From: Gammaproteobacteria bacterium
GTDB lineage: Bacteria; Pseudomonadota; Gammaproteobacteria; Eutrophobiales; Eutrophobiaceae
Direction: 5' to 3'
Assembly (NCBI GenBank): GCA_965221335.1
Contig: CBDCSC010000001.1
Location: 288,519-352,518 of the forward strand
Length of the DNA: 64,000 nt
The position numbers and the translations under genes were made by a program. Within the stretch, counting starts at the first letter, position 1; every line of letters begins with the position of its first letter. Of the stretch, positions 6,635-22,466 are shown piece by piece. The notes beneath the pieces were generated by a model, which was given only the letters and a program-made list of their open reading frames with translations, made no database searches and had not been told where the DNA came from.

Positions 6635-7369
6635 ATGTCCCTGTTTGAACCGTTCGCGATCCTGATCATCCTGGGTTCATTTTTTTCATCGTTTATCAGC
6701 GCAGCCTTTGCGGTGGGCGGTGGTTTCATCATGCTTGCCATTGTCTCCAGCGTGCTGCCGATCACCGCGGCAGTGCCGCTGCACAGTTGCATGATGCTGG
6801 GATTGTCTCTGGGCAGGTCCTGGTATTTCCGCAAAGACATATGCCAGCGCATCGTCTGGCCGTTCCTGCTTGGGGCCTTAATTGGCGTCGCTGTCGGGGG
6901 CAGGCTGTATTTTGACCTGTCGGAATTTTTGCTCAGCCTGGTCATCGGCCTGTTGATTCTTGGCGCGGTGTGGATGCCACAACAGGTAGGATGGGGCATG
7001 CGGTTTCCGGTGCCGTTTTTCTGGGTCGGCATCGCACACGCATTCGTGTCCACGCTGTTTTCGTTCGGCGGCCTGTTTCAGCCGCTGATGATGCGCGCGG
7101 CGTTGTCGAAATTGCAGATCGTCGGCACATTGGCGGCAGGGCTGACGTTCATGAACATACTCAAGATCTGCGCATACAGTTACTACGGCTTTGATTACAG
7201 TCCGTATTTCATGGTCGTCGTGGCCGCCATTCTGGCCGCCGTCCCTGGCGCGTACCTGGGAAAAAAGCTATTGCACCGGATCCCAGAAGACCGGTTCAGG
7301 CTCATATTCAGCCTCATCATGACCTGTTTTGCGCTGAGATTGCTCTACCGCGCATGGATTCTTGTTTAG
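6635..7369 (+). CDS. TSUP-family (TauE/SafE-like) membrane permease
   Basis: 244 aa, highly hydrophobic with multiple predicted TM helices and two internal repeats typical of 4-toluene sulfonate uptake permease proteins. It is the last gene of the hpa cluster. Confidence 0.55.
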   Translation: MSLFEPFAILIILGSFFSSFISAAFAVGGGFIMLAIVSSVLPITAAVPLHSCMMLGLSLGRSWYFRKDICQRIVWPFLLGALIGVAVGGRLYFDLSEFLLSLVIGLLILGAVWMPQQVGWGMRFPVPFFWVGIAHAFVSTLFSFGGLFQPLMMRAALSKLQIVGTLAAGLTFMNILKICAYSYYGFDYSPYFMVVVAAILAAVPGAYLGKKLLHRIPEDRFRLIFSLIMTCFALRLLYRAWILV

Positions 7370-7639
7370 TCCGCATGCCTCAACCCGGACATATTGTTTT
7401 CTAGGATTGTAACTCATTGTTTTATATTAGAATAATTGTTAAACTAGATTGAGCGTAAGCATATAGGAAGCGGATTCAAACAATGCTGTGCGCACTTGGA
7501 CGCGCTAACGGCTGGAAGCATACTCGAATTATTCGTGTGTAGTAGTAGCGTACCAAGTGAGAAAAACAGGTAGGAATGCTCAGCATCCGGACGCTTCGCC
7601 ACGTCAACGCCGATAACACACCTCAACGTATCCAACTTT

Positions 7640-8110
7640 AGGGCTTCACTCCAATTGACACTCCACTGCCTCAGTGCTCGTAGAGCGCGGTGAAGGCGTG
7701 CCGTTGAGGCCGAGTCTACGGGCACTGAGGCCACCTCGAACTGTGGCGCGATGCTACTCGCGGAGCCCGACCGCCGGGTTGATGCCTCATCCTGAGCCAA
7801 GGGGACCTCAACAACCACGGCCGGCTGCAGCTGGACCCCGCGCTGTAGGCGGCTGCAATGCGGGACGGGGTGGTGGCCAGCCCGTCGACGCTGTGCCGGT
7901 TGAAGAGCAAGTCCACGGTTGTGGAGGCGCTGGTGCTGCAGGGAGCTGTTCGATCGGTTCGTGAAGGTCCATACCGTGCCGCCGGTGCCCAGACAAAAGC
8001 ATGAGGGTTGGGAGCGGTGCGCCAGCAGACCGTGTCGGGTCACCGAACACGATAGGCGAGGAACCCAATACGGGGAGATTGACCCAGAGCAGTTAAACCG
8101 AATGTGAACT
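7640..8110 (+). pseudogene. degraded transposase-like remnant (IS4/IS5-type N-terminal region); no intact ORF
   Basis: The ~900-bp stretch between the TSUP gene and the CBASS genes has only short, mutually overlapping ORFs. One frame reads ...LQLDPAL*AAAMRDGVVASPSTLCRLKSKSTVVEALVLQGAVRSVREGP..., which resembles the (A/S)xPSTLxRF region near the N-terminus of IS4/IS5-group transposases and is broken by stop codons. The match is recalled from memory. Confidence 0.3.
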
Positions 8111-8283
8111 CTTCGCGAGACATCATGCACCTAGTTTCCGTAGGGCTTGAAATGAACGGGACAAGTCCCCATTTACTCAAGGAGTAATCAACAGACACGG
8201 GGTAGCTCTATGCTCAGAAAACGCGTGACCGAAAACGGCAAGCTGGAGGGCCCCATTTGGAAATAACCTAGATTAAAGCAGAG

Positions 8284-9150
8284 ATGGGAATCCCGGAGCA
8301 ACAACTTCAAACGTGGTCGCACTTGGGCGCGCAACAGAGCTCCCAGGCCACATATGCCTCGGTTAACAATGCCCTGCAGAACTACGACTGGCCAGTCGAG
8401 ATGGGCAAGCCTGAAGTTTACCTACAAGGCTCTTACCCGAACCACACCAACATCTACGGCGATAGCGACGTAGACGTCGTCGCTGAGACCTCAAGCGTTT
8501 TCTATCACAACGTGCCGGATGATCAGCGCAAACAATTCGGGTTGCCAGAACGCGGTACTGGAGCATATGGATGGCGAGAGTACAAGGATGAAGTGCTCGC
8601 TGCTCTATGTCAATACTACGGACACAACGTCGTCACCCCTCACAACAAGTGCATCAAGATTACTGGTGACAACAATCGCTTGAATGCTGATGTCGTTCCA
8701 TGCGTCCAGTATCGCAAGTACTACACATATAGATCCTTCGCAAAAGGCGTAACGTTCTGGACACGGGATGACAACAATCAAGTGGTCAATTTCCCCAAAA
8801 TCCACCTGTCGAAGGGCGCAGAGAAGAACTCAAGTTGCGACCAGCTCTACAAGCCCAACATCCGCGTCATAAAGAACGCTCGGAACCGTGCCAAGAACGA
8901 TTTCCCGTCTTACTTCCTCGAATGTCTGCTTTACAACGTGCCGAACCAGATATTTACTATCAGCTTCTCCGATACATTCTTCGAGGTGCTGACGTACCTA
9001 AACAACGCAAAAAATGACGGCTCAATGAGCGACTGGTACTGCCAGAATCGCCAGCAGAAGCTATTTGGGCATCGTAAACATCAGATCTCTATCGATGATG
9101 CTTACAAGCTGATTGCTGACCTGATCGACCTTTGGAACGATTGGGAATGA
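8284..9150 (+). CDS. cGAS/DncV-like nucleotidyltransferase (CD-NTase, SMODS) of a CBASS system
   Basis: 288 aa. It has the GS-x12-DxD nucleotidyltransferase motif (QGSYPNHTNIYGDSDVDVV) and a downstream hDhVP third-Asp motif (NADVVPCV). It overlaps the patatin effector gene by 19 nt. Confidence 0.7.
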   Translation: MGIPEQQLQTWSHLGAQQSSQATYASVNNALQNYDWPVEMGKPEVYLQGSYPNHTNIYGDSDVDVVAETSSVFYHNVPDDQRKQFGLPERGTGAYGWREYKDEVLAALCQYYGHNVVTPHNKCIKITGDNNRLNADVVPCVQYRKYYTYRSFAKGVTFWTRDDNNQVVNFPKIHLSKGAEKNSSCDQLYKPNIRVIKNARNRAKNDFPSYFLECLLYNVPNQIFTISFSDTFFEVLTYLNNAKNDGSMSDWYCQNRQQKLFGHRKHQISIDDAYKLIADLIDLWNDWE

Positions 9151-10064
9151 GTAGGCCGCACTTCGTCTTATCTCTTGACGGAGGAGGTTCTCTTGGTGTT
9201 TATACGCTCGGTGTACTCGTCGAAGTAGAACGTATGCTCGACCGCCCCCTTCACGAAGTATTCGAACTCATTTATGGTACGAGCACTGGTGCAATCATCG
9301 CGTCCATGATTGCGCTAGGCGAGGACGTCGAGACTACCATCCAGAATCGCTATTTCGAGATCATTCCTGATGTGATGGGTAAATCTTTCGCTTGGAGTAG
9401 GAGCCGTGCGCTACATCGCCACGCTTCGGAGATATACCAAGGCAAGAAGTTCGATGCGTTCCTTACCAACGTCGGGATCGTTGCGACCCACGTTGAATAC
9501 AACCGGCCGATGGTATTCAAACGAACAGTCAGTCAGGCGCACGGTCGCACGTCGAGCTTCTCACCTGGGTTCGGTTGCACGATCGCTGATGCAGTCATAG
9601 CGTCCTCGGCTGCCTACCCAATCTTTTCAAAGAAGCGTATAGATACGGTAAATAGTGGTGTCCGGACCGTTGTTGACGGTGGGTATTGCGGCAACAATCC
9701 CGCGTTATTCGCCCTAACTGATGCGCTTGGGCCGCTTGGATTCTCTCCGGGTGATGTGCGGCTTCTTAGTATCGGTACAGGGCAGTTCCCTGAGCGCTTT
9801 CGCCTCCTTACACGGGCGCTGACGCTGTTTGCCCCGACGATAATGACGCTTCTTAAGACTAGTTCCAACACCGTTGAAGTTCTAGAACAACTCTTGTTCA
9901 AAGATGTCCGCACTCTACGGATCAATGATGGGCAGACGGGCAGTAGATACAAAACTGACTTAATTGAGAGTGACGTAGCGCTACTGAAACAGATCTTTGA
10001 CCTAGGTCGGGAATCGTTTGCCGTACACGAGAGCGATTTGCGCAAGTTCTTTGATATTTCCTAG
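9132..10064 (+). CDS. capV: patatin-like phospholipase, CapV-type CBASS effector
   Basis: 310 aa. It has the GGGxxG oxyanion motif (LDGGGSLG), the GxSxG nucleophile elbow (GTSTG) and a DGG catalytic Asp motif (VVDGGYCGNNP). Confidence 0.75.
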   Translation: MERLGMSRPHFVLSLDGGGSLGVYTLGVLVEVERMLDRPLHEVFELIYGTSTGAIIASMIALGEDVETTIQNRYFEIIPDVMGKSFAWSRSRALHRHASEIYQGKKFDAFLTNVGIVATHVEYNRPMVFKRTVSQAHGRTSSFSPGFGCTIADAVIASSAAYPIFSKKRIDTVNSGVRTVVDGGYCGNNPALFALTDALGPLGFSPGDVRLLSIGTGQFPERFRLLTRALTLFAPTIMTLLKTSSNTVEVLEQLLFKDVRTLRINDGQTGSRYKTDLIESDVALLKQIFDLGRESFAVHESDLRKFFDIS

Positions 10065-10367
10065 CACATGTCGAAGCAATCATGAGCAACTGCTATCGAG
10101 CCATGCGCCGTCTGTTCTTGGCGGATCTGAACCAATCATATAACGCTCACGTAGTCCGTGTAGGAAGGGACCAGAGTTAGTCAATGCGTAGGCAAATGGA
10201 TCCCAGCAGTTCGGGTGCGTGTTACACGCCAATTCGGCCGCTGATTCCACGGCAAACCGGCCACCCATCCCACGGCAAGCCGGCCGTTCTATGTCGAGAA
10301 TGCTCAAGAGGGATGGAGCAGCAGTGGGTTGCCAGGCTGCAGGCAAGCATGTAGCTCGTCCTCCATT

Positions 10368-10679
10368 TCAGGGTGTGACATTGTGTCCCTCGGCGCACTC
10401 CCGGCGCGGCTTCTCTTTCACGCACCGCCAGATCATCTCGCTGTCGATCCAGATACACTTGGTACATGTGGTATCGACGGCAATGAAATCGGATTCTCTC
10501 CGGTCCACTGGATTCGGCAATGTAGTCGGCATGCTGCCTTCGGTCATTTTCTCGATTCCTTTGTCAATTCTCGAAACATATCCGTGGGCATGATGCCCCT
10601 GCCAAAATGAGTCACGCCAGAACACGAAAATGGTTTTCGTTACTCTATGGTATCCGGGCACCCATCTTGGGAGTGCCAC
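10368..10679 (-). CDS. hypothetical small Cys-containing protein downstream of the OLD-like ATPase
   Basis: 103-aa ORF overlapping the 3' end of the ATPase gene by 40 nt (10640-10679; the two are in different frames, so this may be chance rather than operon structure). It contains CxxC-x10-C-x8-C. I recognise no family, and several other ORFs overlap it. Confidence 0.2.
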   Translation of the reverse strand: MALPRWVPGYHRVTKTIFVFWRDSFWQGHHAHGYVSRIDKGIEKMTEGSMPTTLPNPVDRRESDFIAVDTTCTKCIWIDSEMIWRCVKEKPRRECAEGHNVTP

Positions 10680-12109
10680 AAGCTATTGATGACCTCGTCT
10701 CCTAAGAATTCTGCCAATTGGCCAGTTGGTCTTTGTCGGCCAATTGTCTGAGCAGTTCTGATTGTCCAGTGCACGCTCTTTGGATCCAAAATAGAGTTTA
10801 GTTCACCTATTAGCTCCTTGATGTCCACAATTTGTCGATCCCAGTCCGGAGCCTTCTTCAGCTTTTGTTCCTTATTTCCATATTTGCTAGCATCCTTGAC
10901 AATCTTGGCGGAAGCATCCGCCCAATTAGTCCCCATGGCTATCAAGACCTCATCGGTCAGGTACAGGTTCTCTGTCTCGTGACACGCCAACTGAATGAAC
11001 CGAATGTGGTCTTGCGGGCACTGCGGTGAAGGCATTGGCTTCCCCTTGTCGGCGTCGATCAATGCAAAACCCGACAACTCAGCACCATCCTCTCGCAGAG
11101 CCGCAAACATCTGTTCTAAAGACCGTTGATATCGTTTTATCTCGTTACCGTTGGACGGGAGGACTGCAAACGACACAATATGATGTCTGGGTATCTGACT
11201 CCAAATTCTATAGTCGTCATCACCTTCGACCAGAAGCAATGGCACACCGAATAGAGGTCCCATTAGAGCGTGTCCGCCCAAGACTGCTGAGAGTTCTTTC
11301 GTTACAGCTGTAAAAGGCTGTGCTGCGAAATCCGACTTTGTACGATCAAGATAGAGAACACTTGTGTCGCTGTCCCCGAATTGGCCTAGTGCAGCCATGA
11401 ATGTTGTGCTGTGCGTAGCTACGAGAATTTGGAGACGATATTGTCGTGCCGCCTGAACCAGGAAGTCGGAGAAGCGTACCTGTAGGTCAGGGTGGATATG
11501 GGCGTCAGGTTCGTCAATTAGAATGAGACGTTTGTCTCTTTCGGCAATTTCCCATATCGCCCCCATTGTCAAAACGTCTAGACCAATCGTGAGTAGCTGA
11601 GCTTCACCGCTACTCAACTCATCAATAGATCCAACTTGGCTTTGGTCAACAGACCTCATCAATTTGTATGGGGGGTTTGCGACGCCATCCAAGGCTAACT
11701 CAAAGTCTGGAATTAACTGCCCCATCAATTTCTCTAGGTCTTGCGGGTTGCCCGGAAGTTTGTCGGCCCGAATGTTTCCGCGCGCTGTGAAATATGCTTG
11801 AACTCGCGACACGATATGTTGCCGATACTCGTTTAGGTAGTTCTTCTGGCTAACTTTGCGCCGTTGTAGTGCGCTGAGTTGAGTGCGCAAGTAGTTTGGC
11901 TCGAAATCAAGAGTTCCCGTTCTCTCGGGAACCACATAGTGGATGCTATCACTGTCTTTATCACGAAGTGCGCGCAACATTAGACTTTTCCCCGAGCCAT
12001 TTTTCCCGAAGACGACGGTAATCGTATTTAAGTTCTTCAACATCCAGGGCTTACCGCCTAATGTACCTGGCTGGTCGATTGAAACGTTCTGAAAATATGG
12101 ACTTGTCAT
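10640..12109 (-). CDS. OLD-family ATP-dependent nuclease (ABC-type ATPase with C-terminal TOPRIM-like domain)
   Basis: 489 aa. It has Walker A (GKNGSGKS), an ABC signature-like motif (LSSGEAQLL), Walker B (LILIDEPDAHIHP) and an H-loop (VATHS). The C-terminal region has a TOPRIM-like Glu (LLLVEGDDDYRIW) followed ~60 aa later by DxD (FALIDADKG). Confidence 0.6.
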   Translation of the reverse strand: MTSPYFQNVSIDQPGTLGGKPWMLKNLNTITVVFGKNGSGKSLMLRALRDKDSDSIHYVVPERTGTLDFEPNYLRTQLSALQRRKVSQKNYLNEYRQHIVSRVQAYFTARGNIRADKLPGNPQDLEKLMGQLIPDFELALDGVANPPYKLMRSVDQSQVGSIDELSSGEAQLLTIGLDVLTMGAIWEIAERDKRLILIDEPDAHIHPDLQVRFSDFLVQAARQYRLQILVATHSTTFMAALGQFGDSDTSVLYLDRTKSDFAAQPFTAVTKELSAVLGGHALMGPLFGVPLLLVEGDDDYRIWSQIPRHHIVSFAVLPSNGNEIKRYQRSLEQMFAALREDGAELSGFALIDADKGKPMPSPQCPQDHIRFIQLACHETENLYLTDEVLIAMGTNWADASAKIVKDASKYGNKEQKLKKAPDWDRQIVDIKELIGELNSILDPKSVHWTIRTAQTIGRQRPTGQLAEFLGDEVINSLWHSQDGCPDTIE

Positions 12110-12274
12110 GCGCGAATTCCAGCGATCTGCGCAGAGCTTTCAACAAGGCACTAGTGCACTGATCGCGTTGATTTGATGATTAAAATGTCGCCCGAAATCA
12201 CTACTGTCTGGTCAATAGTTGAGTTAATTCAATTGCGTAGGATTTACATGAACATCACGAGTGTAATTAAATTT

Positions 12275-12900
12275 TGTCATTTTGCACCGTAATAGAGCCG
12301 GCCATTTTCACTTTAATGGAGCCACTTTAAGGCGCTGATTTTCGAGTTCAGACACGGGTATTATTTCTCTGTTTCGGCCTGCTTTGCAAGCGGTTTATCG
12401 ATGGGCCTCGGTGAGCGGTAACTGTTCCCATCCAAGACCACCCGGTAGGCGTTGTGGCGTAACCGGTCAAGGGTGGCGGCGCCAAGCAACCGGTTCGGGA
12501 AGGCATCGCCCCATTCGCCGAAGTCCAGGTTGCTGGTGATGACGGTAGCCGCCCGCTCATAGCGCTCTGCGACCAGGTCATGGAAGTCTTCATCCTGGGG
12601 CGGTCGCAGGGGTTTGAGGCCGAAGTCATCAATAATCAACACGGGCGTTTTGGCCAGGCTCTGGAACTGTCGCTCATAGGAGTCGGTGGCTCGGGCCGCA
12701 TGCAGCGTGCCCAGCAACCGGGATTGCGTCATAAACATCACATCGTGGCCCTGTCGCACGGCAGCATGACCGATGGCTTGGGCGATATGGCTCTTGCCGG
12801 TGCCACAGGGGCCGGCAATCAGGACGGCCACGCGCTCTTCGATGAAGCGACCGGTGACCAACTCATAGGGCAGCGCTGCGTTGATGTTGGGGTTGAAATC
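12275..12900 (-). mobile_element. istB: IS21-family remnant: terminal inverted repeat plus the 3' portion of istB
   Basis: TGTCATTTTGCACCG begins at 12275 and is followed by direct sub-repeats (GAGCCGGCCATTTTCACTTTAATGGAGCCACTTTAAGG), as in IS21-type multi-repeat ends. The ORF segment from about 12361 to 12900 encodes an IstB-like C-terminal ~175 aa (VLIAGPCGTGKSH Walker A, LIIDDFG Walker B). The IstB N-terminus and all of istA are missing. Confidence 0.55.
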
Positions 12901-13791
12901 AACGTCCGCGCTCGAGGCCTGAATGGACTCCCAGAGCAGGTGTGCGTAGCGCGCGGTCGAGTCGACTTTCCGGTGCCCTAGCAGTTTGCCGATCATCGAC
13001 AGGCCCTCGCCAATCGCGATCGCGTAAGAGGCGTAGGCGTGCCGCAGGTCGTGCAACCGCACATCGTCGAGGCCGGCGCGTTCCCGGATCCGGTCCCATA
13101 AAGTGCTGACGTTCACCTGGCGAGTGCTCTTCTTCCTGCCGGGAAACACCCACGGATTGTCGGTTGCCCTCAGAAGATCGGCCAGCACGTCCGCGACGGC
13201 CGGAGGAAGCGGTACGACGCAGGGACCCGTCTTGCTGTCGCGCAGCCGCATTTTGAACCGGCAGATCAGCTTGCATGGGTTTCGCCCCGGTGGACGCATC
13301 TGCCAGAGTTCCGCGAGGTCGAACATCTTCACCAGGATGTTCACGCAACTGTTGGTCGTGGTGGGCACCCGGCGCAACTTGTACTGGAACTCGAAGATGT
13401 CGTTGCGTTCCACCCCGGCCACCTTGAGTTACCCGAGGCGCGGCACGATGTGGTTCCGCAGCATCAGCCAGTAGGTATTGACCGTACCCGGCTTGCAGTG
13501 CGCCGCGACGTGCTCGCGCATGTAGCATCCGGCGAGATCCGAAACGGTCGGATCGGGCGCGGGCGCAATCTCGCCATGGTGGCCCACGGTCACGCGCTTC
13601 GACGTGCCGTTAGCACGCGTCTGAATGACGTACACTTTGCGTCCCGATGGATAGACGCTCACGCCGAAGCCCGGCAACTCGCGGTCCCAGAACACCGCGT
13701 CCTTGCCGTCGACCGCCAGCCGGTCCACGATTCGCTTGGAGAGGGTGAGGTACTGGCGTTGGGGCATGTCGTCGTTCGTCGGCAGGACCAT
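12901..13791 (-). pseudogene. int: P4-type tyrosine integrase, inactivated by an in-frame TAA at 13429-13431 and truncated or fused at the 3' end with the istB fragment
   Basis: The 13429-13791 ORF encodes an N-terminal arm/DUF4102-like domain (LTLSKRIVDRLAVDGKDAVFWDRELPGFGVSV). It continues in the SAME frame after a single TAA into the catalytic region (HDLRHAYASYAIAIGEGLSMIGKLLGHRKVDSTARYAHL), which then runs directly into IstB-like sequence. Confidence 0.6.
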
Positions 13792-13988
13792 TCCAGCCAG
13801 TCCCGACGGGACGTACTTACGTAAGCATACAGAACGCGACTGACTTGAAATCTGAGGGTATTACAGCGTATCGACAGTGTAGATGCAAGGCATACGGCGA
13901 CGGAGATGAAATCAATTTATAGAATATTTACAATGCTTTATGCAAACTCTGCGCACGAGAGCGCACTCGAGTCGGAGAGGTAGAAATA

Positions 13989-14691
13989 TCAAACTCGGTT
14001 AACCCGCAAATCGGACAGATTCCCGGTTGGGAACGGACCAACCCGTCCGTCCACCAGGTTGAGTATATTGTCCGACAATGACTGCGCCCGCAATCGGTCG
14101 TGGGCGCTGAAAATAATAGTTTTGGTCCTGGCATCCCGTTGTTCAGCAATCCAGGTCTCGATTTCAATGACTGTGACCTCATCCAGGTAAGTGAATGGTT
14201 CATCCATGATGACCACCTCGGGTTGTGGAGCCAGGGCCCGGGCCAACGCCACTTTTTGGATTTCACCGCCCGACAGCTTGCCGGCATCCCGAGCCAAAAG
14301 GCCTGTCAGTCCCAGTTCTCCAGCGACGGCATCCACAGCAACGTCGATCGCGCGTCGTGTTGCGCCCCTTAACTTCAGCCCCAGGCCGATATTGTCCCGG
14401 ACGGACATTTTCATCAGGTAGGGTTTCTGCTGCACATACCCCACCTGGCGGCGCAGGCGCGTGCCTAGCGTTGCTGACGCCGGCTTGCCGCGGAACAATA
14501 TCGTGCCCGTGTCCGGCTTTCTCAGGAAAGCCAGCATGTCAAACAGCGTGCTTTTCCCTGAACCGTTGGGCCCGATCACAGCGGTGACCCGGTTGTGGTC
14601 GATATGAAGTTCATCCAGGTCGAGCGCTTTCCTGCTGCCATAGGAAAATGTCAGCCCGGAGATTTGATACAGATGGTCCACCGGCGCGCTA
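13989..14691 (-). CDS. ABC transporter ATP-binding protein (tungstate/molybdate-type, TupC-like)
   Basis: Walker A GPNGSGKS, signature LSGGEIQKV, Walker B VVIMDEP and an H-loop (SAHD). The likely start is the GTG giving VDHLYQISGL, which would overlap the permease stop. The longer listed ORF extension overlaps the permease and is discounted. Confidence 0.6.
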
Positions 14692-15757: not shown

Positions 15758-15871
15758 TCTGATTTCTAACTTAAGGAATTACACGCAAGTGCGCTTGAAA
15801 AATTTTATCTCATCCCCATTTTTTATACCAGTAACACAGTTAACCCGAACAACCCCTTTGGAGGTGACAAC

Positions 15872-16297
15872 ATGGTCAGATTATTCACAAGTCCGGTTGA
15901 CAGCCTTTTGTCATTGCAGAAATCGCTGTCGGATACGATGCTGAGCGACTGGTTCGGTTCAGGACTCAGCAGCCGCGGCGGTTTCCCACCGATCAACATT
16001 TTTCAGGTGGACGGCGAGTACGCAATCATTGCTGAACTGCCCGGCGTCAATAAGGACAGTATCGATATTGATGTGCAGCGCAACCGCGTCAGGATTTCAG
16101 GCAATAAGGAAGTAAATTACGGTGAAGGCACCAGCCTGCACCGGCGTGAACGGCAGACCGGTGCGTTTGACCGCACCTTTGCCACGCCGTTTGAAATAGA
16201 TGCTGAAAAGGTCAAGGCCGATTACCGTGACGGTATCCTGGCGCTGTCCTTGCCACGCGCCGAGCAGGACAAGCCGCGCTCGATCAGTATTTCCTGA
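15872..16297 (+). CDS. Hsp20/alpha-crystallin small heat-shock protein
   Basis: 141 aa with an alpha-crystallin domain (FDRTFATPFEIDAEKVKADYRDGILALSLPR). Confidence 0.8.
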   Translation: MVRLFTSPVDSLLSLQKSLSDTMLSDWFGSGLSSRGGFPPINIFQVDGEYAIIAELPGVNKDSIDIDVQRNRVRISGNKEVNYGEGTSLHRRERQTGAFDRTFATPFEIDAEKVKADYRDGILALSLPRAEQDKPRSISIS

Positions 16298-16364: not shown

Positions 16365-16763
16365 ATGGCAAAGAATCAAGATTTAACTCCGCAAGAGAAG
16401 AAAGAACTCGATGCAAAGGAGGAAAAGACCTATGCCGGCAAATTTTACATTCCCGGCACCGACATTTTCGAGAGTGGTGATGCAATCACCATGGCGATGG
16501 AAATGCCCGGCGTGAGCCGAGACAATATCGACATCAAACTGGAGAAGCGCCAGCTTTCGGTCCAGGGCCAAATCGATTTCGATAACTATACCGACTTCAA
16601 GCCGGTCTACACGGAATACAATGTCGGCCACTTCAGCCGCAATTTTACCCTGTCAAGCGAGATCGACACGGATAATATCAAGGCAAATGTCGCCGACGGT
16701 GTACTGACCCTGATACTTCCGAAAGCGAAGGAAACCCAGCTCAGGAAGATCCAGGTCAACTAG
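16365..16763 (+). CDS. Hsp20/alpha-crystallin small heat-shock protein (paralogue)
   Basis: 132 aa (FSRNFTLSSEIDTDNIKANVADGVLTLILPK). Confidence 0.8.
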   Translation: MAKNQDLTPQEKKELDAKEEKTYAGKFYIPGTDIFESGDAITMAMEMPGVSRDNIDIKLEKRQLSVQGQIDFDNYTDFKPVYTEYNVGHFSRNFTLSSEIDTDNIKANVADGVLTLILPKAKETQLRKIQVN

Positions 16764-16781
16764 AAATAACCCACCCAACCG

Positions 16782-16814
16782 ACGGCGGCTATATTCGACA
16801 GGGATAGCCGCCGT
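16782..16814. terminator. candidate bidirectional intrinsic terminator between the hsp20 pair and vsr
   Basis: Perfect 11-bp inverted repeat ACGGCGGCTAT / ATAGCCGCCGT with an 11-nt loop, then TTAAATCATT. It lies between convergent genes. Confidence 0.45.
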
Positions 16815-16892
16815 TAAATCATTGTGTGAGTCTAGGAAGGTTAAACGGGGATGCCTGGAGATAGAACCCAGATCCCGTTTAGAAATTATATT

Positions 16893-17351
16893 TCAATGTG
16901 TCCTTTGTAGTAGTTTTCCAAGACGATTAATTTTTCTTCTGCTAATTTCATTATCCTTTAGTTCACATTCCCAAATTCGCAATACTTTCCATCCCCTTTT
17001 TTTAATCGTCCTATTAACCAATTTATCGCGTTTTTTATTGGCATTTATTTTTTTTATCCAAAACTCGTTGTTGTTTTCTGGAATTTGACCATGCTTTGGA
17101 CAATCATGCCAAAAACAGCCGTCGACAAATATCGCTACTTTACTATTTGGAAATGTAATATCTGGTTTGCCAAAAATAGGATATCTCCGACGCCAGCCTA
17201 CCAATCGTTTCTGTTTTAATAGTTCGATCAATTTCCCTTCGGTTGATTTATTTCCAGAGGAACGCACTCTACCCATCAGCCATGAGCGTTTTTCCTTTGA
17301 ATAAACATCAACCATTGTTTTGATGAGGGGCTTTTTTCTCGCACATATCAA
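16893..17351 (-). CDS. vsr: very-short-patch repair endonuclease
   Basis: 152 aa with the diagnostic Vsr motif FVDGCFWHDCPKHG. It overlaps the upstream GHKL gene by 44 nt and lies inside the low-GC block. Confidence 0.8.
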   Translation of the reverse strand: MICARKKPLIKTMVDVYSKEKRSWLMGRVRSSGNKSTEGKLIELLKQKRLVGWRRRYPIFGKPDITFPNSKVAIFVDGCFWHDCPKHGQIPENNNEFWIKKINANKKRDKLVNRTIKKRGWKVLRIWECELKDNEISRRKINRLGKLLQRTH

Positions 17352-18963
17352 CTCTGCGTAACAGAAAAGAAATCAAGCTCAATACGTCCAGGCAGTCGTC
17401 TTCATTGAAGTATCTTTTGGTCTCTGCTTTTACATGGTGAGATGTTGGATTTCTGAAAGATTCCGCAAGACCAACGGAGAGAGATCTCTGACCTCTTTGA
17501 ATGCTTTGTTTTGTTTCAGAGTTATTGAAAAAATCCGGGAGCTCCAAAATCGGATTATCGGCAGAAAAAACCTTGTTAAACAAGCTCGTCATATCGCTTT
17601 CTTGTCCTGATTTTTTTCTAACCAGATCACTGTATATCTTTGTGCCTTCTTGTGCAGCTTCTAAATATTGAGCGTTTTTATAGTATTCAATTAGTGGATT
17701 TTTTAATTTATTATCCAGATGTCTCCAGTGATAAAGAGGGTAGGGAGGTATGACCTCCTCCAGTTTAGTTAAAATAAGTGTTGATTTTTCAGAGTCGATT
17801 TCTTCAGAATTTGTAAATTCATCAATGAGAGAGACTACATTATCCCGCATACCTTCAGGGAGAGAATCCTGCCAAGATTGTATATCAATTTCAGTTCTCT
17901 GTTGGATATGTTCTTGTTTTTTCTCTTTGCGTTTTTTGCGCCAGTCTGACTGCACAAATTTGATACATTCCTCAAGATATCTATGAAGTTTACCGGTTTG
18001 TTCATGTCCCCAGTTTAGGCTTTGTCTATTAGTGGAAATCACATCTTCTGAAAAATCTTCAATGAAATCAACTTCGAGCCAACCCGTAAGATAAGAAAAG
18101 AAATGACTGGATGTGCTATCTGAAAATTGATACGGAGCTTGTACGAGTTTGCCCCTGGAAAATAATGATATTCCCCTTGAATTATATTTGGGTGGAATAG
18201 GTTTTTCTGACGTGATGATTTTTCCTTGGATATTGTGACGATATTCGTGATCAAGATCGATGTTTTTGAAATCCTCAGGGAATTTCCAGGAAAATTCCTC
18301 GCCAAATGCCGAAAAATGCATTTCATTCGAAAGCTTTATGGGTTTCTCATTATTGCGGCGAATTGAGACATTAAAATCTTCATCAAAAATAAAAAACTTC
18401 GCTATGTTATTAGCTAGAAGTTCGTCTGAGAAATCAGTTGATCGGGTTATGTTTTTCAGCGTTATTTTGGTTCCTTTCTGATCATCTTCAACAATTTCGT
18501 CCACAACATCAGGAATCATCTGGTACTGTCCTCCCGTTGAATTCATCAGATCATTCCAATCCATGGTAAATATATTCCTTTTTCCTTGGTTGACAGTATT
18601 GATGGTTATGGTCTGAACAATTCCAAAGAATGAAAGTTTTCCCAGACCTTTTTTACCAATTACTTTCCTTCCTCCTGGAGTTGTATGTTCCGTTTCTCTA
18701 CGGTTGCGGCCAATGACAAGAAATTTTTGATTGATATCGTCAAACGACATCCCTAACCCATTGTCTTTTATTACTATTTTTTTCTCTTCTATATCATAAA
18801 GTTCAATATCTACTTTTGTGGCATCAGCATCGTAAGCATTCGCAATAAGCTCTCCAAGGACTGGTGGAACTGTAGAATACATACGTACCCCCAGGTGCTC
18901 TATAACCTTTGGGTCAAATTTCATTAGCAATGGTTTATCGGGCATAAAATTTTCAGTTCGCAC
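17308..18963 (-). CDS. GHKL-superfamily ATPase (MORC/MutL-like; HATPase_c_3-type), R-M associated
   Basis: 551 aa. It has Bergerat-fold motifs: N-box ELIANAYDA, G1 IKDNGLGM, G2 GKKGLGKLSFFG. The long C-terminal region is of unknown function and contains an Rx4H segment (SFRNPTSHH) reminiscent of HEPN. It overlaps the MTase stop by 11 nt. Confidence 0.6.
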   Translation of the reverse strand: MRTENFMPDKPLLMKFDPKVIEHLGVRMYSTVPPVLGELIANAYDADATKVDIELYDIEEKKIVIKDNGLGMSFDDINQKFLVIGRNRRETEHTTPGGRKVIGKKGLGKLSFFGIVQTITINTVNQGKRNIFTMDWNDLMNSTGGQYQMIPDVVDEIVEDDQKGTKITLKNITRSTDFSDELLANNIAKFFIFDEDFNVSIRRNNEKPIKLSNEMHFSAFGEEFSWKFPEDFKNIDLDHEYRHNIQGKIITSEKPIPPKYNSRGISLFSRGKLVQAPYQFSDSTSSHFFSYLTGWLEVDFIEDFSEDVISTNRQSLNWGHEQTGKLHRYLEECIKFVQSDWRKKRKEKKQEHIQQRTEIDIQSWQDSLPEGMRDNVVSLIDEFTNSEEIDSEKSTLILTKLEEVIPPYPLYHWRHLDNKLKNPLIEYYKNAQYLEAAQEGTKIYSDLVRKKSGQESDMTSLFNKVFSADNPILELPDFFNNSETKQSIQRGQRSLSVGLAESFRNPTSHHVKAETKRYFNEDDCLDVLSLISFLLRRVDMCEKKAPHQNNG

Positions 18964-19993
18964 GAATGGCTTCTGCTATCCTGTAGGCAAGCTGTGGAGG
19001 TACTGCATTGCCAATTAGTTTGGCTACGATTGTTGGGTATTGATGCTTAAATTTATAATTTTCAAACGTTTGGAGAGCAGCGCCTTCTCTAAGAGACAGC
19101 CCTCTGTCTTCTTCGGGATGGGCAAACCTGCCATTAGAGATCCCATTAAATCTGGTTGTAATGGTTGAAGATGGCTTATCCCATCTCAGTCTTCCGTAAA
19201 CGTCACAAAATGATTCATCTTTATCTTTGTAAGCATCAATTTGAAGTTCCGGGTCATCTTTCCATGCTTTTCTTGTACCACCATTTTTGGGTGTAAGTAT
19301 TAGTCGTCTTAAATTTTTCTCAGATAAGGTTGCTACCGTATCCATAAAGTTATTTTCATCTCTGTGACCAGCCTGAAGAGTTGGGAATCCATTATGTGTT
19401 CCAATAAAATCTTTGAGAATCGATTCTCCTTCCGGATTTGGAAAGCTGATCAATTTTTGCACTCTGTTGGCAATTAAAATGAATCTCTTTCTACCCTGTG
19501 GTACTCCGTAATTCTTTGCGTTTATGATATTGCTGACAATTGCGTATTGATTATTTTTAAGTTTCTCACAAAACTTGTCAAGGCCGCTTTCTGAGGCCCG
19601 TCTTTTTATTCCAGGGACATTTTCAATAACCACATAGCCGGGTTTGTAGTAACTGACAAAGCGCCAAAAATCTTCGAGTAGCCCTTTGGTTCCTTTGGAT
19701 GAAGTTTTGTCAGAATTAAGATTGCTCCAGTATTGGCAGGGGCTGCAACCAATGAAGATTAAGGAATCATCATTGCGTTTAATTTCGCATTCATGTTCCA
19801 AAAAAGTCCGAGGCAGTTTCCGGATATCTTTCAGAAGAAACTTTGTGTCGGGATGATTCGCTTTGTATGTGTCTTTGCAATCCTTATCTTTATCTATGCC
19901 GACAAGAACCTTCATTCCAGACATTTTCATCCCTTGAGACATTCCGCCCGCGCCACAGAAAAAATCAACAACTTTTAAATCTTCATCTTTCAT
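18953..19993 (-). CDS. dcm: DNA (cytosine-5)-methyltransferase
   Basis: 346 aa with motif I FCGAGG, the PC motif (GCSPCQYWS) and ENV motif IV (VVIENVPGI). It overlaps the upstream GHKL gene by 4 nt. Confidence 0.85.
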   Translation of the reverse strand: MKDEDLKVVDFFCGAGGMSQGMKMSGMKVLVGIDKDKDCKDTYKANHPDTKFLLKDIRKLPRTFLEHECEIKRNDDSLIFIGCSPCQYWSNLNSDKTSSKGTKGLLEDFWRFVSYYKPGYVVIENVPGIKRRASESGLDKFCEKLKNNQYAIVSNIINAKNYGVPQGRKRFILIANRVQKLISFPNPEGESILKDFIGTHNGFPTLQAGHRDENNFMDTVATLSEKNLRRLILTPKNGGTRKAWKDDPELQIDAYKDKDESFCDVYGRLRWDKPSSTITTRFNGISNGRFAHPEEDRGLSLREGAALQTFENYKFKHQYPTIVAKLIGNAVPPQLAYRIAEAIRAN

Positions 19994-22338: not shown

Positions 22339-22466
22339 AGTGTTGTATGTTTATTTTATGGCCATCACAAATTTCTCAGTGATTTCAAATACTGTTATTG
22401 CGCCCAATTGAATTTTCCTGCAAAGTAAAGGTCATAGTTGATATTTTGTCGAAAACAATATAAAAA

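What the first reader, a model, noticed from the sequence alone, without database searches (positions are those of the whole stretch)
8284..10064. Minimal type-I CBASS: CD-NTase immediately followed by, and overlapping, a patatin-like CapV effector
The 288-aa protein has GS-x12-DxD and hDVVP motifs diagnostic of cGAS/DncV-like nucleotidyltransferases. The downstream 310-aa protein has the patatin GGGxxG/GxSxG/DGG triad. Two genes with no Cap2/Cap3 or HORMA/TRIP13 accessory genes make this the simplest CBASS architecture. It is embedded in a decayed mobile region. The cyclase is short, so its product nucleotide is unknown.
Basis: partly seen in the sequence, partly recalled or inferred. Interest (0 to 1): 0.55.

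Follow-up and report, generated by a model that had tools for sequence, protein, structure and literature searches.

The report
Two-gene CdnE–CapE type I CBASS
This is an intact but ordinary two-gene bacterial anti-phage alarm system: a clade-E cGAS-like cyclase coupled to a CapE-type membrane-destroying phospholipase, carried on a small decayed mobile island.

Summary
Window 8284-9150 (+) encodes a 288-aa CD-NTase. It is followed by a patatin phospholipase whose likely start is the ATG at 9147 (305 aa, ATGA overlap), not the TTG at 9132.

The cyclase belongs to clade E. It is 44% identical over its full length to Rhodothermus marinus CdnE, a 3'3'-cUMP-AMP synthase. The predicted fold matches that structure at TM 0.84, and the 50 best PDB fold matches listed are all CD-NTases. 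The catalytic residues G49/S50/D62/D64/D136 are invariant in 106 homologues.

The effector is 45% identical over its full length to CapE (PDB 9IOM, "cUMP-AMP-activated phospholipase"). It is only remotely related to CapV. No Cap2/Cap3, HORMA/TRIP13 or diadenylate cyclase gene lies nearby, so this is a type I CBASS.

3'3'-cUA is most likely: the uracil-selecting Asn169 is kept, and the (R/Q)xW di-pyrimidine motif is absent.

The pair forms a 2.1-kb cassette that is 87% identical in DNA to one in an alphaproteobacterial MAG. It sits in a roughly 6.4-kb island with a broken integrase and an IS21 remnant, in a variable hotspot of a gammaproteobacterial chromosome.

It is a new member of a known kind, of low interest.

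The parts
8081..8283 (+). Conserved 203-bp region upstream of the cyclase gene. Presumed promoter and 5' leader of the cassette; function not shown.
   Evidence: It is part of the 2137-bp block that is 87% identical to L001/L006. It includes a 23-nt invariant stretch at 8118-8140. No sigma-70 consensus promoter was found above chance.
8284..9150 (+). cdnE: clade-E cGAS/DncV-like nucleotidyltransferase, 288 aa. Catalytic G49, S50, D62, D64, D136; lid-1 Asn169.
   Evidence: PADLOC cyclase PDLC00788 E = 5e-94. RmCdnE (6E0K/6E0L) E = 4e-68 and 44% identity over the full length. AlphaFold model pLDDT 82; Foldseek best match 6E0L at TM 0.84. Catalytic and lid-1 residues are invariant in 106 homologues.
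9147..10064 (+). capE-like patatin phospholipase effector, 305 aa from ATG 9147. Oxyanion GGGSLG, nucleophile Ser46 in GTSTG, Asp177 in DGG. ATGA overlap with the cdnE stop.
   Evidence: Pfam Patatin E = 2e-23. PADLOC phospholipase effector PDLC00755 E = 2e-102. PDB 9IOM 'cUMP-AMP-activated phospholipase' E = 1.5e-73 and 45% identity over 298 aa. Motifs are conserved in the alignment. Start codon.
10065..10216 (+). Conserved 3' flank of the cassette. Homology with the alphaproteobacterial copy ends here.
   Evidence: blastn block 8081-10216, 87% identical to L001; alignment.
7454..7472 (+). Candidate left att-like direct repeat of the island (CGTAAGCATATAGGAAGCG).
   Evidence: It matches 13820-13838 at 16 of 19 positions. 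Homology to L001 starts here. It lies inside the variable region 7368-14055 defined against syntenic L096. Weak evidence: the repeat is short and has only two copies.
13820..13838 (+). Candidate right att-like direct repeat, 29 nt beyond the integrase start codon.
12361..13791 (-). Decayed mobility genes. The tyrosine integrase has an N-terminal arm/SAM domain at 13429-13791, then a frameshift. The C-terminal part of its catalytic domain is fused in frame to an IS21 IstB fragment (12361-13422).
   Evidence: Pfam hits Arm-DNA-bind_3, Phage_int_SAM_3, Phage_integrase (profile positions 67-168 of 172) and IstB_IS21 (profile positions 46-232 of 238).
10640..12109 (-). Neighbouring cargo gene of the island, convergent with the CBASS pair: a 489-aa ABC-type (AAA_21/AAA_15) ATPase resembling the ATPase core of AriA/OLD/GajA. 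It is not part of the CBASS cassette.
   Evidence: It is absent next to the pair in every homologous locus.

Best explanation
This is a self-contained type I CBASS anti-phage operon of the CdnE-CapE kind.

Shown: two intact, translationally coupled genes encode a clade-E CD-NTase of the Rhodothermus marinus CdnE sub-lineage and a CapE-type patatin phospholipase. All catalytic residues are present, both genes are under purifying selection, and no accessory CBASS genes are nearby.

Inferred mechanism:
1. On phage infection the cyclase is activated by an unknown cue. For other clade-E or type I systems, a structured phage RNA or late virion-assembly events have been reported.
2. The cyclase condenses UTP and ATP into 3'3'-cUMP-AMP.
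3. The dinucleotide binds CapE dimers and drives them into membrane-associated filaments, which switches on the Ser-Asp lipase.
4. The lipase degrades the inner membrane and kills the cell before phage release (abortive infection).

The pair travels as a roughly 2.1-kb cassette. Here it lies in a roughly 6.4-kb integrase-borne island, now immobilised, inserted between the TauE-family gene and an ABC-transporter operon of a gammaproteobacterial chromosome.
For: Identity of the cyclase:
- PADLOC full-length match to a CBASS cyclase model, E = 5e-94.
- A PDB sequence search at E <= 1 returns only clade-E CD-NTases, led by RmCdnE at 233 bits.
- 44% identity to RmCdnE over residues 1-287.
- The predicted fold matches 6E0L, 'R. 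marinus CdnE c-UMP-AMP synthase', at TM 0.84, and the 50 best PDB fold matches listed are all CD-NTases.
- G49, S50, D62, D64 and D136 are invariant in 106 homologues.

Identity of the effector:
- PADLOC match E = 2e-102.
- 45% identity over 298 aa to 9IOM, 'cUMP-AMP-activated phospholipase'.
- The GGGxxG, GxSxG and DGG motifs are conserved.

Type I architecture:
- No PADLOC hit for any of the flank ORFs, and no Pfam hit for the three largest of them.
- The DNA homology block with L001 covers only the two genes plus about 200 bp upstream and 150 bp downstream.
- The same cyclase-then-patatin pair, with a 1-4 nt overlap, recurs in five unrelated contexts at 51-83% cyclase identity: a TIR island, a 16.8-kb plasmid with an XhoI R-M system, next to Lhr, near a DAC gene, and in a Dnd/GmrSD island.

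Selection: dN/dS is 0.21 for the cyclase and 0.17 for the patatin, measured against L001.

Product:
- Lid-1 Asn169 aligns with RmCdnE Asn166 and is invariant in the family. That Asn hydrogen-bonds the acceptor uracil, and N166S switches the product from cUA to cAA (PMC10442399).
- The donor-pocket pair is Cys253/His266, like RmCdnE Cys252/Glu265. The (R/Q)xW motif that restricts the donor to pyrimidines is absent; here it reads H-Q-I (PMC10442399).
- The effector's closest solved relative is activated by cUA. [quoted passage not shown]

Island:
- Synteny with L096 breaks at 7368 and resumes at 14056.
- Integrase pseudogene and IstB fragment.
Against: - No activity was measured. The product assignment rests on 44-45% identical relatives and on three specificity positions.
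- The lid-3 positions (H-Q-I) differ from RmCdnE (E-Q-W), so the donor preference (A versus G) and the linkage type are uncertain.
- The best NCBIfam models are those of DS-2 (CBASS-DAC), a system in which a third gene, a diadenylate cyclase, is essential and mutation of the cGAS-like catalytic residues had only minor effects (PMC13069673, PMC13092281). One relative, L093, has a DS2_3 DAC gene 3 kb away.
- No promoter or terminator was detected above chance.
- The phage cue is unknown.
Confidence: 0.85

Rival explanations
1. Same architecture, different signal. The cyclase makes another dinucleotide (cUG, cAA, cUU or a 2'-5'-linked species), and the CapE-like effector is tuned to that molecule rather than to 3'3'-cUA.
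For: Identity to the characterised enzymes is only 44-45%. The lid-3 triplet is H-Q-I here, with H in 86 of 106 family members and I/T/V at the third position, against E-Q-W in RmCdnE. Single residue changes are known to reprogramme clade-E products (PMC10442399).
Against: Lid-1 Asn is invariant, so a uracil acceptor is expected. The Glu...Arg/Gln clamp and the Trp of the di-pyrimidine enzymes are absent, so a purine donor is expected (PMC10442399). The effector independently points to cUA.
Confidence: 0.3
2. It is a CBASS-DAC (DS-2) type system or its remnant. The real signal would come from a diadenylate cyclase encoded elsewhere or lost, and the CD-NTase would be dispensable or regulatory.
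For: The top NCBIfam hits are DS2_2 (264 bits) and DS2_1 (350 bits). In DS-2 the DAC is essential, and cGAS-like catalytic mutations have minor effects (PMC13069673, PMC13092281). Relative L093/L094 carries a DS2_3 equivalog (698 bits against a cutoff of 630) 3 kb upstream of its pair.
Against: Both scores fall below the curated cutoffs of 350 and 400. True DS2-type pairs such as L010 pass them, have the opposite gene order, and have a patatin 69% identical to 9IOM. tblastn with the DS2_3 protein finds nothing in the 64-kb window (best E = 1.7). Five of the six distinct contexts, counting the window, have no DAC. The cyclase catalytic residues are invariant and dN/dS is 0.21.
Confidence: 0.06
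3. The genes are a decaying, non-functional relic of the dead mobile island.
For: The island's integrase is frameshifted and fused to an IS21 IstB fragment. No consensus promoter was found.
Against: Both ORFs are full length relative to solved homologues. All catalytic motifs are intact. dN/dS is about 0.2 against the 87%-identical copy, and the flanks are conserved.
Confidence: 0.05
4. The first gene is a non-CBASS Pol-beta nucleotidyltransferase (MNT-type antitoxin or similar), sitting next to an unrelated housekeeping patatin lipase.
For: The Pfam SMODS hit is weak, 25.9 bits against a cutoff of 26.5, and covers only residues 18-71.
Against: Full-length matches to CD-NTase models and structures. 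The 50 best fold matches listed are all CD-NTases. Homologues carry Pfam CD_NTase_C. The gene pairing is conserved across unrelated contexts.
Confidence: 0.01

Closest known systems
Rhodothermus marinus CdnE (PDB 6E0K/6E0L), a clade-E CD-NTase and 3'3'-cUMP-AMP synthase
   Same: 44% identity over the full length and about the same size (288 versus 296 aa). The fold matches at TM 0.84. The catalytic GS, DxD and D residues are shared. So are the uracil-selecting lid-1 Asn (N169 = N166) and the open donor pocket with Cys (C253 = C252) (PMC10442399).
   Different: The lid-3 triplet is H-Q-I instead of E-Q-W. No biochemical data exist for this protein.
E. coli CdnE-CapE system (CapE structure 9IOM, 'cUMP-AMP-activated phospholipase'; cUA-induced CapE filaments)
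   Same: A two-component cyclase plus patatin lipase system. The effector is 45% identical over residues 22-319 of CapE, including the C-terminal non-catalytic region. The presumed mechanism is the same (PMC12804361, PMC13434031).
   Different: The E. coli-type lineage is represented here by L010, whose patatin is 69% identical to 9IOM. In it the effector gene lies upstream of the cyclase, and its cyclase is only 36% identical to the window's. In the window the order is cyclase then effector, and the cyclase is closer to RmCdnE.
DS-2 / Liu-DS2 = CBASS-DAC (NCBIfam NF053870-NF053872)
   Same: These are the best-scoring NCBIfam models for both proteins. The system also has a phospholipase and a cGAS-like enzyme.
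   Different: Both scores are below the curated cutoffs. No DAC (DS2_3) gene is present in the window. The gene order is reversed. In DS-2 the DAC, not the cGAS-like enzyme, is essential (PMC13069673, PMC13092281).
Vibrio cholerae DncV-CapV (type II CBASS, 3'3'-cGAMP)
   Same: The same logic: a CD-NTase signal activates a patatin phospholipase that destroys the membrane.
   Different: DncV is clade A and matches the model only weakly (Foldseek E about 1e-6, TM about 0.5). CapV matches only at E about 1e-8 over the N-terminal 210 residues. The NCBIfam CBASS_lipase model scores 105 bits against a cutoff of 200. There are no Cap2/Cap3 genes here.

Membership tests
CD-NTase (cGAS/DncV-like nucleotidyltransferase) | Pol-beta NTase catalytic signature: GS followed by [DE]x[DE], and a third acidic residue on a later strand | tested here: met
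   G49-S50, D62-V-D64 and D136 in NADVVP. All are invariant in 106 homologues and aligned with RmCdnE G47/S48/D60/D62/D129.
CD-NTase (cGAS/DncV-like nucleotidyltransferase) | Bilobed fold: NTase core plus C-terminal helical bundle | tested here: met
   AlphaFold model pLDDT 82. In Foldseek against the PDB, the 50 best matches listed are all CD-NTases; the best is 6E0L at TM 0.84. Homologues carry Pfam CD_NTase_C.
CD-NTase clade E (RmCdnE-like) | Closest sequence relatives are clade-E enzymes | tested here: met
   The PDB phmmer search at E <= 1 returns only the CdnE proteins Rm, Ef, Em, Cl and Lp. RmCdnE scores 233 bits against 127 bits or less for the others. A formal tree with all clades was not built.
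CD-NTase clade E (RmCdnE-like) | Synthesis of a cyclic dinucleotide (3'3'-cUMP-AMP) | not testable with these tools
   Only specificity residues could be checked: lid-1 Asn169 is present and the (R/Q)xW motif is absent (rules from PMC10442399).
CapE-type patatin CBASS effector | Patatin catalytic apparatus: GGGxxG oxyanion hole, GxSxG nucleophile, DGG aspartate | tested here: met
   GGGSLG at 12-17, GTSTG with Ser46, DGG with Asp177. All are conserved in the alignment with 9IOM and eight homologues.
CapE-type patatin CBASS effector | Full-length homology to CapE, including the C-terminal regulatory part | tested here: met
   45% identity over 298 aa of 9IOM, E = 1.5e-73.
CapE-type patatin CBASS effector | cUA binding, filament assembly and lipase activation | not testable with these tools
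   The primary paper (Wang et al., Cell 2025) is not held, so ligand-contact residues could not be checked.
CapV (cGAMP-activated phospholipase, NCBIfam NF041079) | Score at or above the curated equivalog cutoff | tested here: not met
   104.7 bits against a cutoff of 200, and only residues 12-218 align. CapV structures match at E about 1e-8.
Type I CBASS (cyclase plus effector only) | Cyclase and effector adjacent and co-oriented | tested here: met
   4-nt ATGA overlap. The order and overlap are conserved in five other contexts.
Type I CBASS (cyclase plus effector only) | Absence of Cap2/Cap3 (E1/E2/JAB), HORMA/TRIP13 and QueC/TGT/OGG genes | tested here: met
   No PADLOC hit for any flank ORF tested in 7444-8130 and 10080-10679 (nine, of 62-228 aa), and no Pfam hit for the three largest of them. 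The neighbours are a TauE-family gene and an ABC-type ATPase on the opposite strand. Conservation of the cassette stops about 200 bp and 150 bp outside the pair.
CBASS-DAC / DS-2 | DS2_1 and DS2_2 equivalog scores at or above the cutoffs | tested here: not met
   350.4 bits against 400 and 264.4 bits against 350. The control pair L010 passes with 500 and 407 bits.
CBASS-DAC / DS-2 | Associated diadenylate cyclase gene (DS2_3) | tested here: not met
   tblastn of a verified DS2_3 protein (L093, 698 bits) against the whole window gives a best E of 1.7.
Anti-phage defence system | Protection against phage, abortive-infection phenotype | not testable with these tools
   Only context could be examined. 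Relatives sit beside TIR/Thoeris-like, R-M, Dnd and GmrSD genes.

The most novel reading that the evidence does not exclude
The cyclase-first cdnE-capE lineage found here differs from both characterised relatives. Its lid-3 is H-Q-[I/T/V], its effector is 45% identical to CapE, and one member lies next to a DS2_3 diadenylate cyclase. It could therefore signal with a molecule other than 3'3'-cUA, or, as in CBASS-DAC, it might not rely mainly on the CD-NTase for its signal. Either case would make it a functionally distinct CBASS subtype.
Probability: 0.15. Interest if true: 0.4.

Novelty: new member of a known kind. Interest (0 to 1): 0.15.

Why it matters
The finding adds one more intact CdnE-CapE type I CBASS to a family that already has well over a thousand members and a solved mechanism, so it changes little.

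Three minor points of value:
- It gives a clean example of a 2.1-kb defence cassette shared at 87% DNA identity between an alphaproteobacterial MAG and a gammaproteobacterial genome.
- It shows a chromosomal hotspot (TauE | ABC transporter) that holds different defence or toxin-antitoxin cargo in related genomes.
- The RmCdnE-like, cyclase-first lineage has no biochemically characterised cyclase-effector pair. It would be a convenient test of the published lid-residue rules for product prediction.

Tried and rejected
- Exact-sequence look-ups of the window's cyclase, patatin, HpaE, ATPase and the 100%-identical TauE protein found no contig. The source genome itself could not be retrieved.
- Megablast of 7300-12400 against plasmids found no match.
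- tRNA and Rfam scans of the whole window found nothing, so there is no tRNA integration site and no riboswitch or ncRNA near the operon.
- The promoter and terminator scan of 7370-12400 found nothing above shuffled expectation.
- The genome-contig scan returned only one relative, the alphaproteobacterial MAG.
- JGI metagenome relatives at 40-48% identity mostly lack a patatin neighbour, so they say nothing about this pair. Their effectors were not identified.
- The idea that the 489-aa ATPase is a CBASS accessory gene (TRIP13-like) was rejected. It is ABC-type (AAA_21/AAA_15), lies on the opposite strand, and is absent from all homologous loci.
- The MNT/Pol-beta rival was rejected.
- Papers that would give CapE ligand contacts (Wang et al. 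2025) and the original clade definitions (Whiteley et al. 2019) are not held. A search for 'DS-2' with four terms found nothing. The meaning of DS2 was recovered through PMC13069673 and PMC13092281.
- The 19-nt direct repeat as an att site is kept only as a weak candidate, because the search pattern was derived from the two copies themselves.
Full report
**Observation.** The sequence at the junction reads ...TGGGAATGAGT... An ATG at 9147-9149 overlaps the cyclase stop codon (9148-9150) as ATGA. Homologous effectors begin MS(R/K)P.F..LSLDGGG, and their genes are called with a 1-4 nt overlap on the cyclase gene. The real effector is therefore most likely the 305-aa product of 9147-10064. In the cyclase they are G49-S50, D62-x-D64 (11, not 12, residues after the GS) and NADVVP with D136. 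In the patatin they are GGGSLG, GTSTG (Ser46) and DGG (Asp177).

**What the cyclase is.** Pfam alone is uninformative: the SMODS hit scores 25.9 bits, just under its cutoff. Other evidence is clear.
- PADLOC's CBASS cyclase model PDLC00788 matches end to end at E = 5e-94.
- A sequence search of the PDB at E <= 1 finds only clade-E CD-NTases. Rhodothermus marinus CdnE (6E0K/6E0L) leads with E = 4e-68 over residues 1-287, ahead of EfCdnE, EmCdnE, ClCdnE and LpCdnE.
- BLASTP identity to RmCdnE is 44%.
- An AlphaFold2 model built on 28 homologues (pLDDT 82) matches 6E0L, "R. marinus CdnE c-UMP-AMP synthase", at TM 0.84.
- The 50 best PDB fold matches listed are all CD-NTases, in the order clade E, then CdnD, CdnC, CdnB, DncV and CdnG. 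No MNT or other Pol-beta enzyme appears among them.
- The family is large: 1910 proteins at E <= 1e-10, the closest 120 of them mostly 280-290 aa. A length of 288 aa is normal for clade E, not "short".
- In an alignment of 106 homologues plus RmCdnE, residues G49, S50, D62, D64 and D136 are invariant.

**What the effector is.**
- Pfam Patatin matches at E = 2e-23 and PADLOC's CBASS phospholipase effector PDLC00755 at E = 2e-102.
- The closest solved structure is 9IOM, "cUMP-AMP-activated phospholipase" (CapE). It matches at E = 1.5e-73 with 45% identity across residues 22-319, including the C-terminal non-catalytic part.
- CapV structures match only at E about 1e-8, over the N-terminal 210 residues.
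- NCBIfam's cGAMP-activated lipase model scores 105 bits against a cutoff of 200.
- The oxyanion loop, the nucleophile Ser and the Asp are conserved in every aligned homologue.

The effector is CapE-type, not CapV-type.

**Architecture.** The nine ORFs tested in the 914-bp upstream gap and the 575-bp downstream gap (62-228 aa) have no PADLOC hit, and the three largest of them have no Pfam hit. The next genes are a TauE-family permease upstream and a convergent ABC-type ATPase downstream. There is no Cap2/Cap3, HORMA/TRIP13 or QueC/TGT/OGG gene. This is type I in the Millman classification.

The same cyclase-then-patatin pair, with overlapping stop and start codons, recurs at 51-83% cyclase identity in unrelated settings:
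- beside TIR-domain genes in an alphaproteobacterial MAG (L001);
- on a 16.8-kb plasmid next to an XhoI-type R-M system (L004);
- next to Lhr (L092);
- in a Dnd/GmrSD island (L095);
- near a DAC gene (L093).

Against L001, DNA identity is 87% over window 8081-10216. This block covers the two genes plus 203 bp upstream and 152 bp downstream. dN/dS is 0.21 for the cyclase and 0.17 for the patatin, so both genes are maintained by selection.

**The DS-2 lead.** The best NCBIfam models for the two proteins are DS2_2_antiphage (264 bits, cutoff 350) and DS2_1_antiphage (350 bits, cutoff 400). DS-2, also published as Liu-DS2 or CBASS-DAC, is a three-gene system: a phospholipase, a cGAS-like enzyme and a diadenylate cyclase. 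The DAC is essential, and mutating the cGAS-like catalytic residues has little effect (PMC13092281; PMC13069673). I tested whether the window holds such a system.
- Both scores are below the cutoffs.
- A verified DS2_3 protein from locus L093 (698 bits against a cutoff of 630) finds nothing in the 64-kb window by tblastn (best E = 1.7).
- A pair that does pass the DS2 cutoffs (L010: 500 and 407 bits) has the opposite gene order. Its patatin is 69% identical to 9IOM, against 45% for the window. Its cyclase is only 36% identical to the window's.

The window's pair is therefore a sister lineage of the E. coli CapE/DS-2 lineage. It has a cyclase nearer to RmCdnE and no DAC. That one relative (L093/L094) has a DS2_3 gene 3 kb upstream, with an IS3 element in between, is noted but not explained.

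**Predicted product and mechanism (inferred).** RmCdnE makes 3'3'-cUMP-AMP. Its lid-1 Asn166 hydrogen-bonds the acceptor uracil, and N166S converts the product to cAA. Di-pyrimidine CdnEs carry an (R/Q)xW motif whose Arg/Gln pairs with a Glu to narrow the donor pocket. In RmCdnE the equivalent residues, Cys252 and Glu265, stay apart and admit adenine (PMC10442399).

In the window protein, Asn169 aligns with Asn166 and is invariant in the family. Cys253 aligns with Cys252. The triplet aligned with E265-Q266-W267 is H266-Q267-I268, so there is neither a clamp nor a Trp. This predicts a uracil acceptor and a purine donor.

Independently, the effector's closest characterised relative is activated by cUA. 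E. coli CdnE makes cUA, and CapE dimers then assemble into filaments at the membrane and disrupt it (PMC12804361; PMC13434031).

I therefore commit to the following chain: phage cue, then CdnE synthesises 3'3'-cUA, then CapE forms filaments and becomes an active lipase, then the membrane is destroyed and infection is aborted. I put about 0.6 on cUA specifically and about 0.85 on the system as a whole.

The cue is unknown. A clade-E cyclase in Staphylococcus senses a structured phage RNA (PMC10686824), and type I systems have been linked to virion-assembly proteins (bioRxiv 10.1101/2023.05.21.541620); I cite both from their titles and abstracts. Neither could be tested here.

**Context.** The window is chromosomal and gammaproteobacterial.
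- It carries ilvD, argE, argA, aceK and a VC_2705-type symporter.
- Its IlvD is up to 93% identical to proteins from MAGs, and the named hits, at 87-88%, are labelled Gammaproteobacteria.
- Compared with the syntenic locus L096 (TauE 87% identical), homology stops at 7367, the end of the TauE-family gene, and resumes at 14056 inside an ABC-transporter ATPase gene.
- L096 carries different cargo at that site: an M78 peptidase, a Gp49/HTH pair and an AAA_14/DUF4143 ATPase.

Inside the window's variable segment lie the CBASS cassette and a convergent 489-aa AAA_21/AAA_15 ATPase. That ATPase resembles AriA, OLD and GajA only in the ATPase core. The segment also holds a tyrosine integrase broken by a frameshift. 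Its catalytic-domain remnant is fused in frame to an IS21 IstB fragment.

An imperfect 19-nt direct repeat (7454-7472 and 13820-13838, 16 of 19 positions) brackets a 6.4-kb unit, with the integrase start 29 nt from the right copy. Homology with the alphaproteobacterial locus also begins at the left copy. This is a plausible att pair but weak evidence. "Embedded in a decayed mobile region" is supported.

**Verdict.** It is an intact, minimal type I CBASS. More precisely, it pairs an RmCdnE-like clade-E cyclase with a CapE-type phospholipase, and its predicted signal is 3'3'-cUMP-AMP. It is a new member of a well-characterised kind, so interest is low (0.15). The only non-trivial residual possibility is that this cyclase-first lineage uses a different signal or has a DAC connection. 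I put that at about 0.15.

Noticed in passing
window 16762-22464: A low-GC (0.37-0.42) insertion of about 5.7 kb between the HSP20 and MoxR genes, relative to syntenic L096. It carries a Vsr nicking endonuclease (16893-17351, -), a 551-aa HATPase_c_3 + Hypoth_Ymh protein matching PADLOC 'REase_II' models (17308-18963, -), a Dcm-type C5 methylase (18953-19993, -) and a 782-aa ORF with no Pfam or PADLOC hit (19990-22338, -). It is probably a horizontally acquired restriction-modification or defence island.
   Followed up: partly
window 10640-12109 (-): A 489-aa ABC-type ATPase (AAA_21/AAA_15) in the same island as the CBASS pair and convergent with it. It matches AriAB, NsnB, AriA, GajA and PtuA models only weakly, mainly in the ATPase core, and no partner gene is evident. 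It may be a stand-alone or orphaned defence ATPase.
   Followed up: partly
window 12361-13791 (-): A tyrosine integrase pseudogene. The N-terminal arm/SAM domains lie at 13429-13791, followed by a frameshift. The catalytic-domain remnant is fused in frame to an IS21 IstB fragment. No IstA is present.
   Followed up: partly
window 7368-14055 versus L096 10733-14828: The interval between the TauE-family gene and the ABC-transporter operon is a variable hotspot. The window holds the CBASS island. The related genome holds an M78 peptidase, a Gp49/HTH (HigBA-like) pair, an AAA_14/DUF4143 ATPase and a formate/nitrite transporter.
   Followed up: partly
window 15857-16068 and 16500-16761: The small heat-shock (HSP20) gene looks interrupted or partly duplicated. 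Two separate window segments match one continuous L096 gene, with about 430 bp of unmatched sequence between them.
   Followed up: no
L093 1265-3022 (also L094 1028-2785): A 585-aa DACNG/DACNH/DAC protein that passes the NCBIfam DS2_3 equivalog cutoff lies 3 kb upstream of a cyclase-first cdnE-capE pair (cyclase 54% identical to the window's). Small ORFs and an IS3-family transposase lie in between. This suggests that the CBASS-DAC association may extend beyond the E. coli-type, patatin-first lineage.
   Followed up: partly
window 8081-10216 versus L001/L006 9799-11933 (OZ244896.1): The cassette is 87% identical in DNA between this gammaproteobacterial chromosome and an alphaproteobacterial MAG, with dS of only 0.3-0.4. 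This implies fairly recent transfer across classes. A 23-nt stretch upstream of the cyclase gene (8118-8140) is invariant between the two.
   Followed up: partly
L012-L091 (JGI metagenome loci): Cyclase relatives at 40-48% identity mostly have no patatin gene within reach, so this cyclase sub-lineage is paired with other effector types. Those effectors were not identified.
   Followed up: no
window 7444-8130 (-): A 228-aa ORF fills most of the gap upstream of the cassette. It has no Pfam or PADLOC hit and an odd Ser/Arg/His-rich composition. The DNA there is not conserved with L001. It is probably not a gene.
   Followed up: partly
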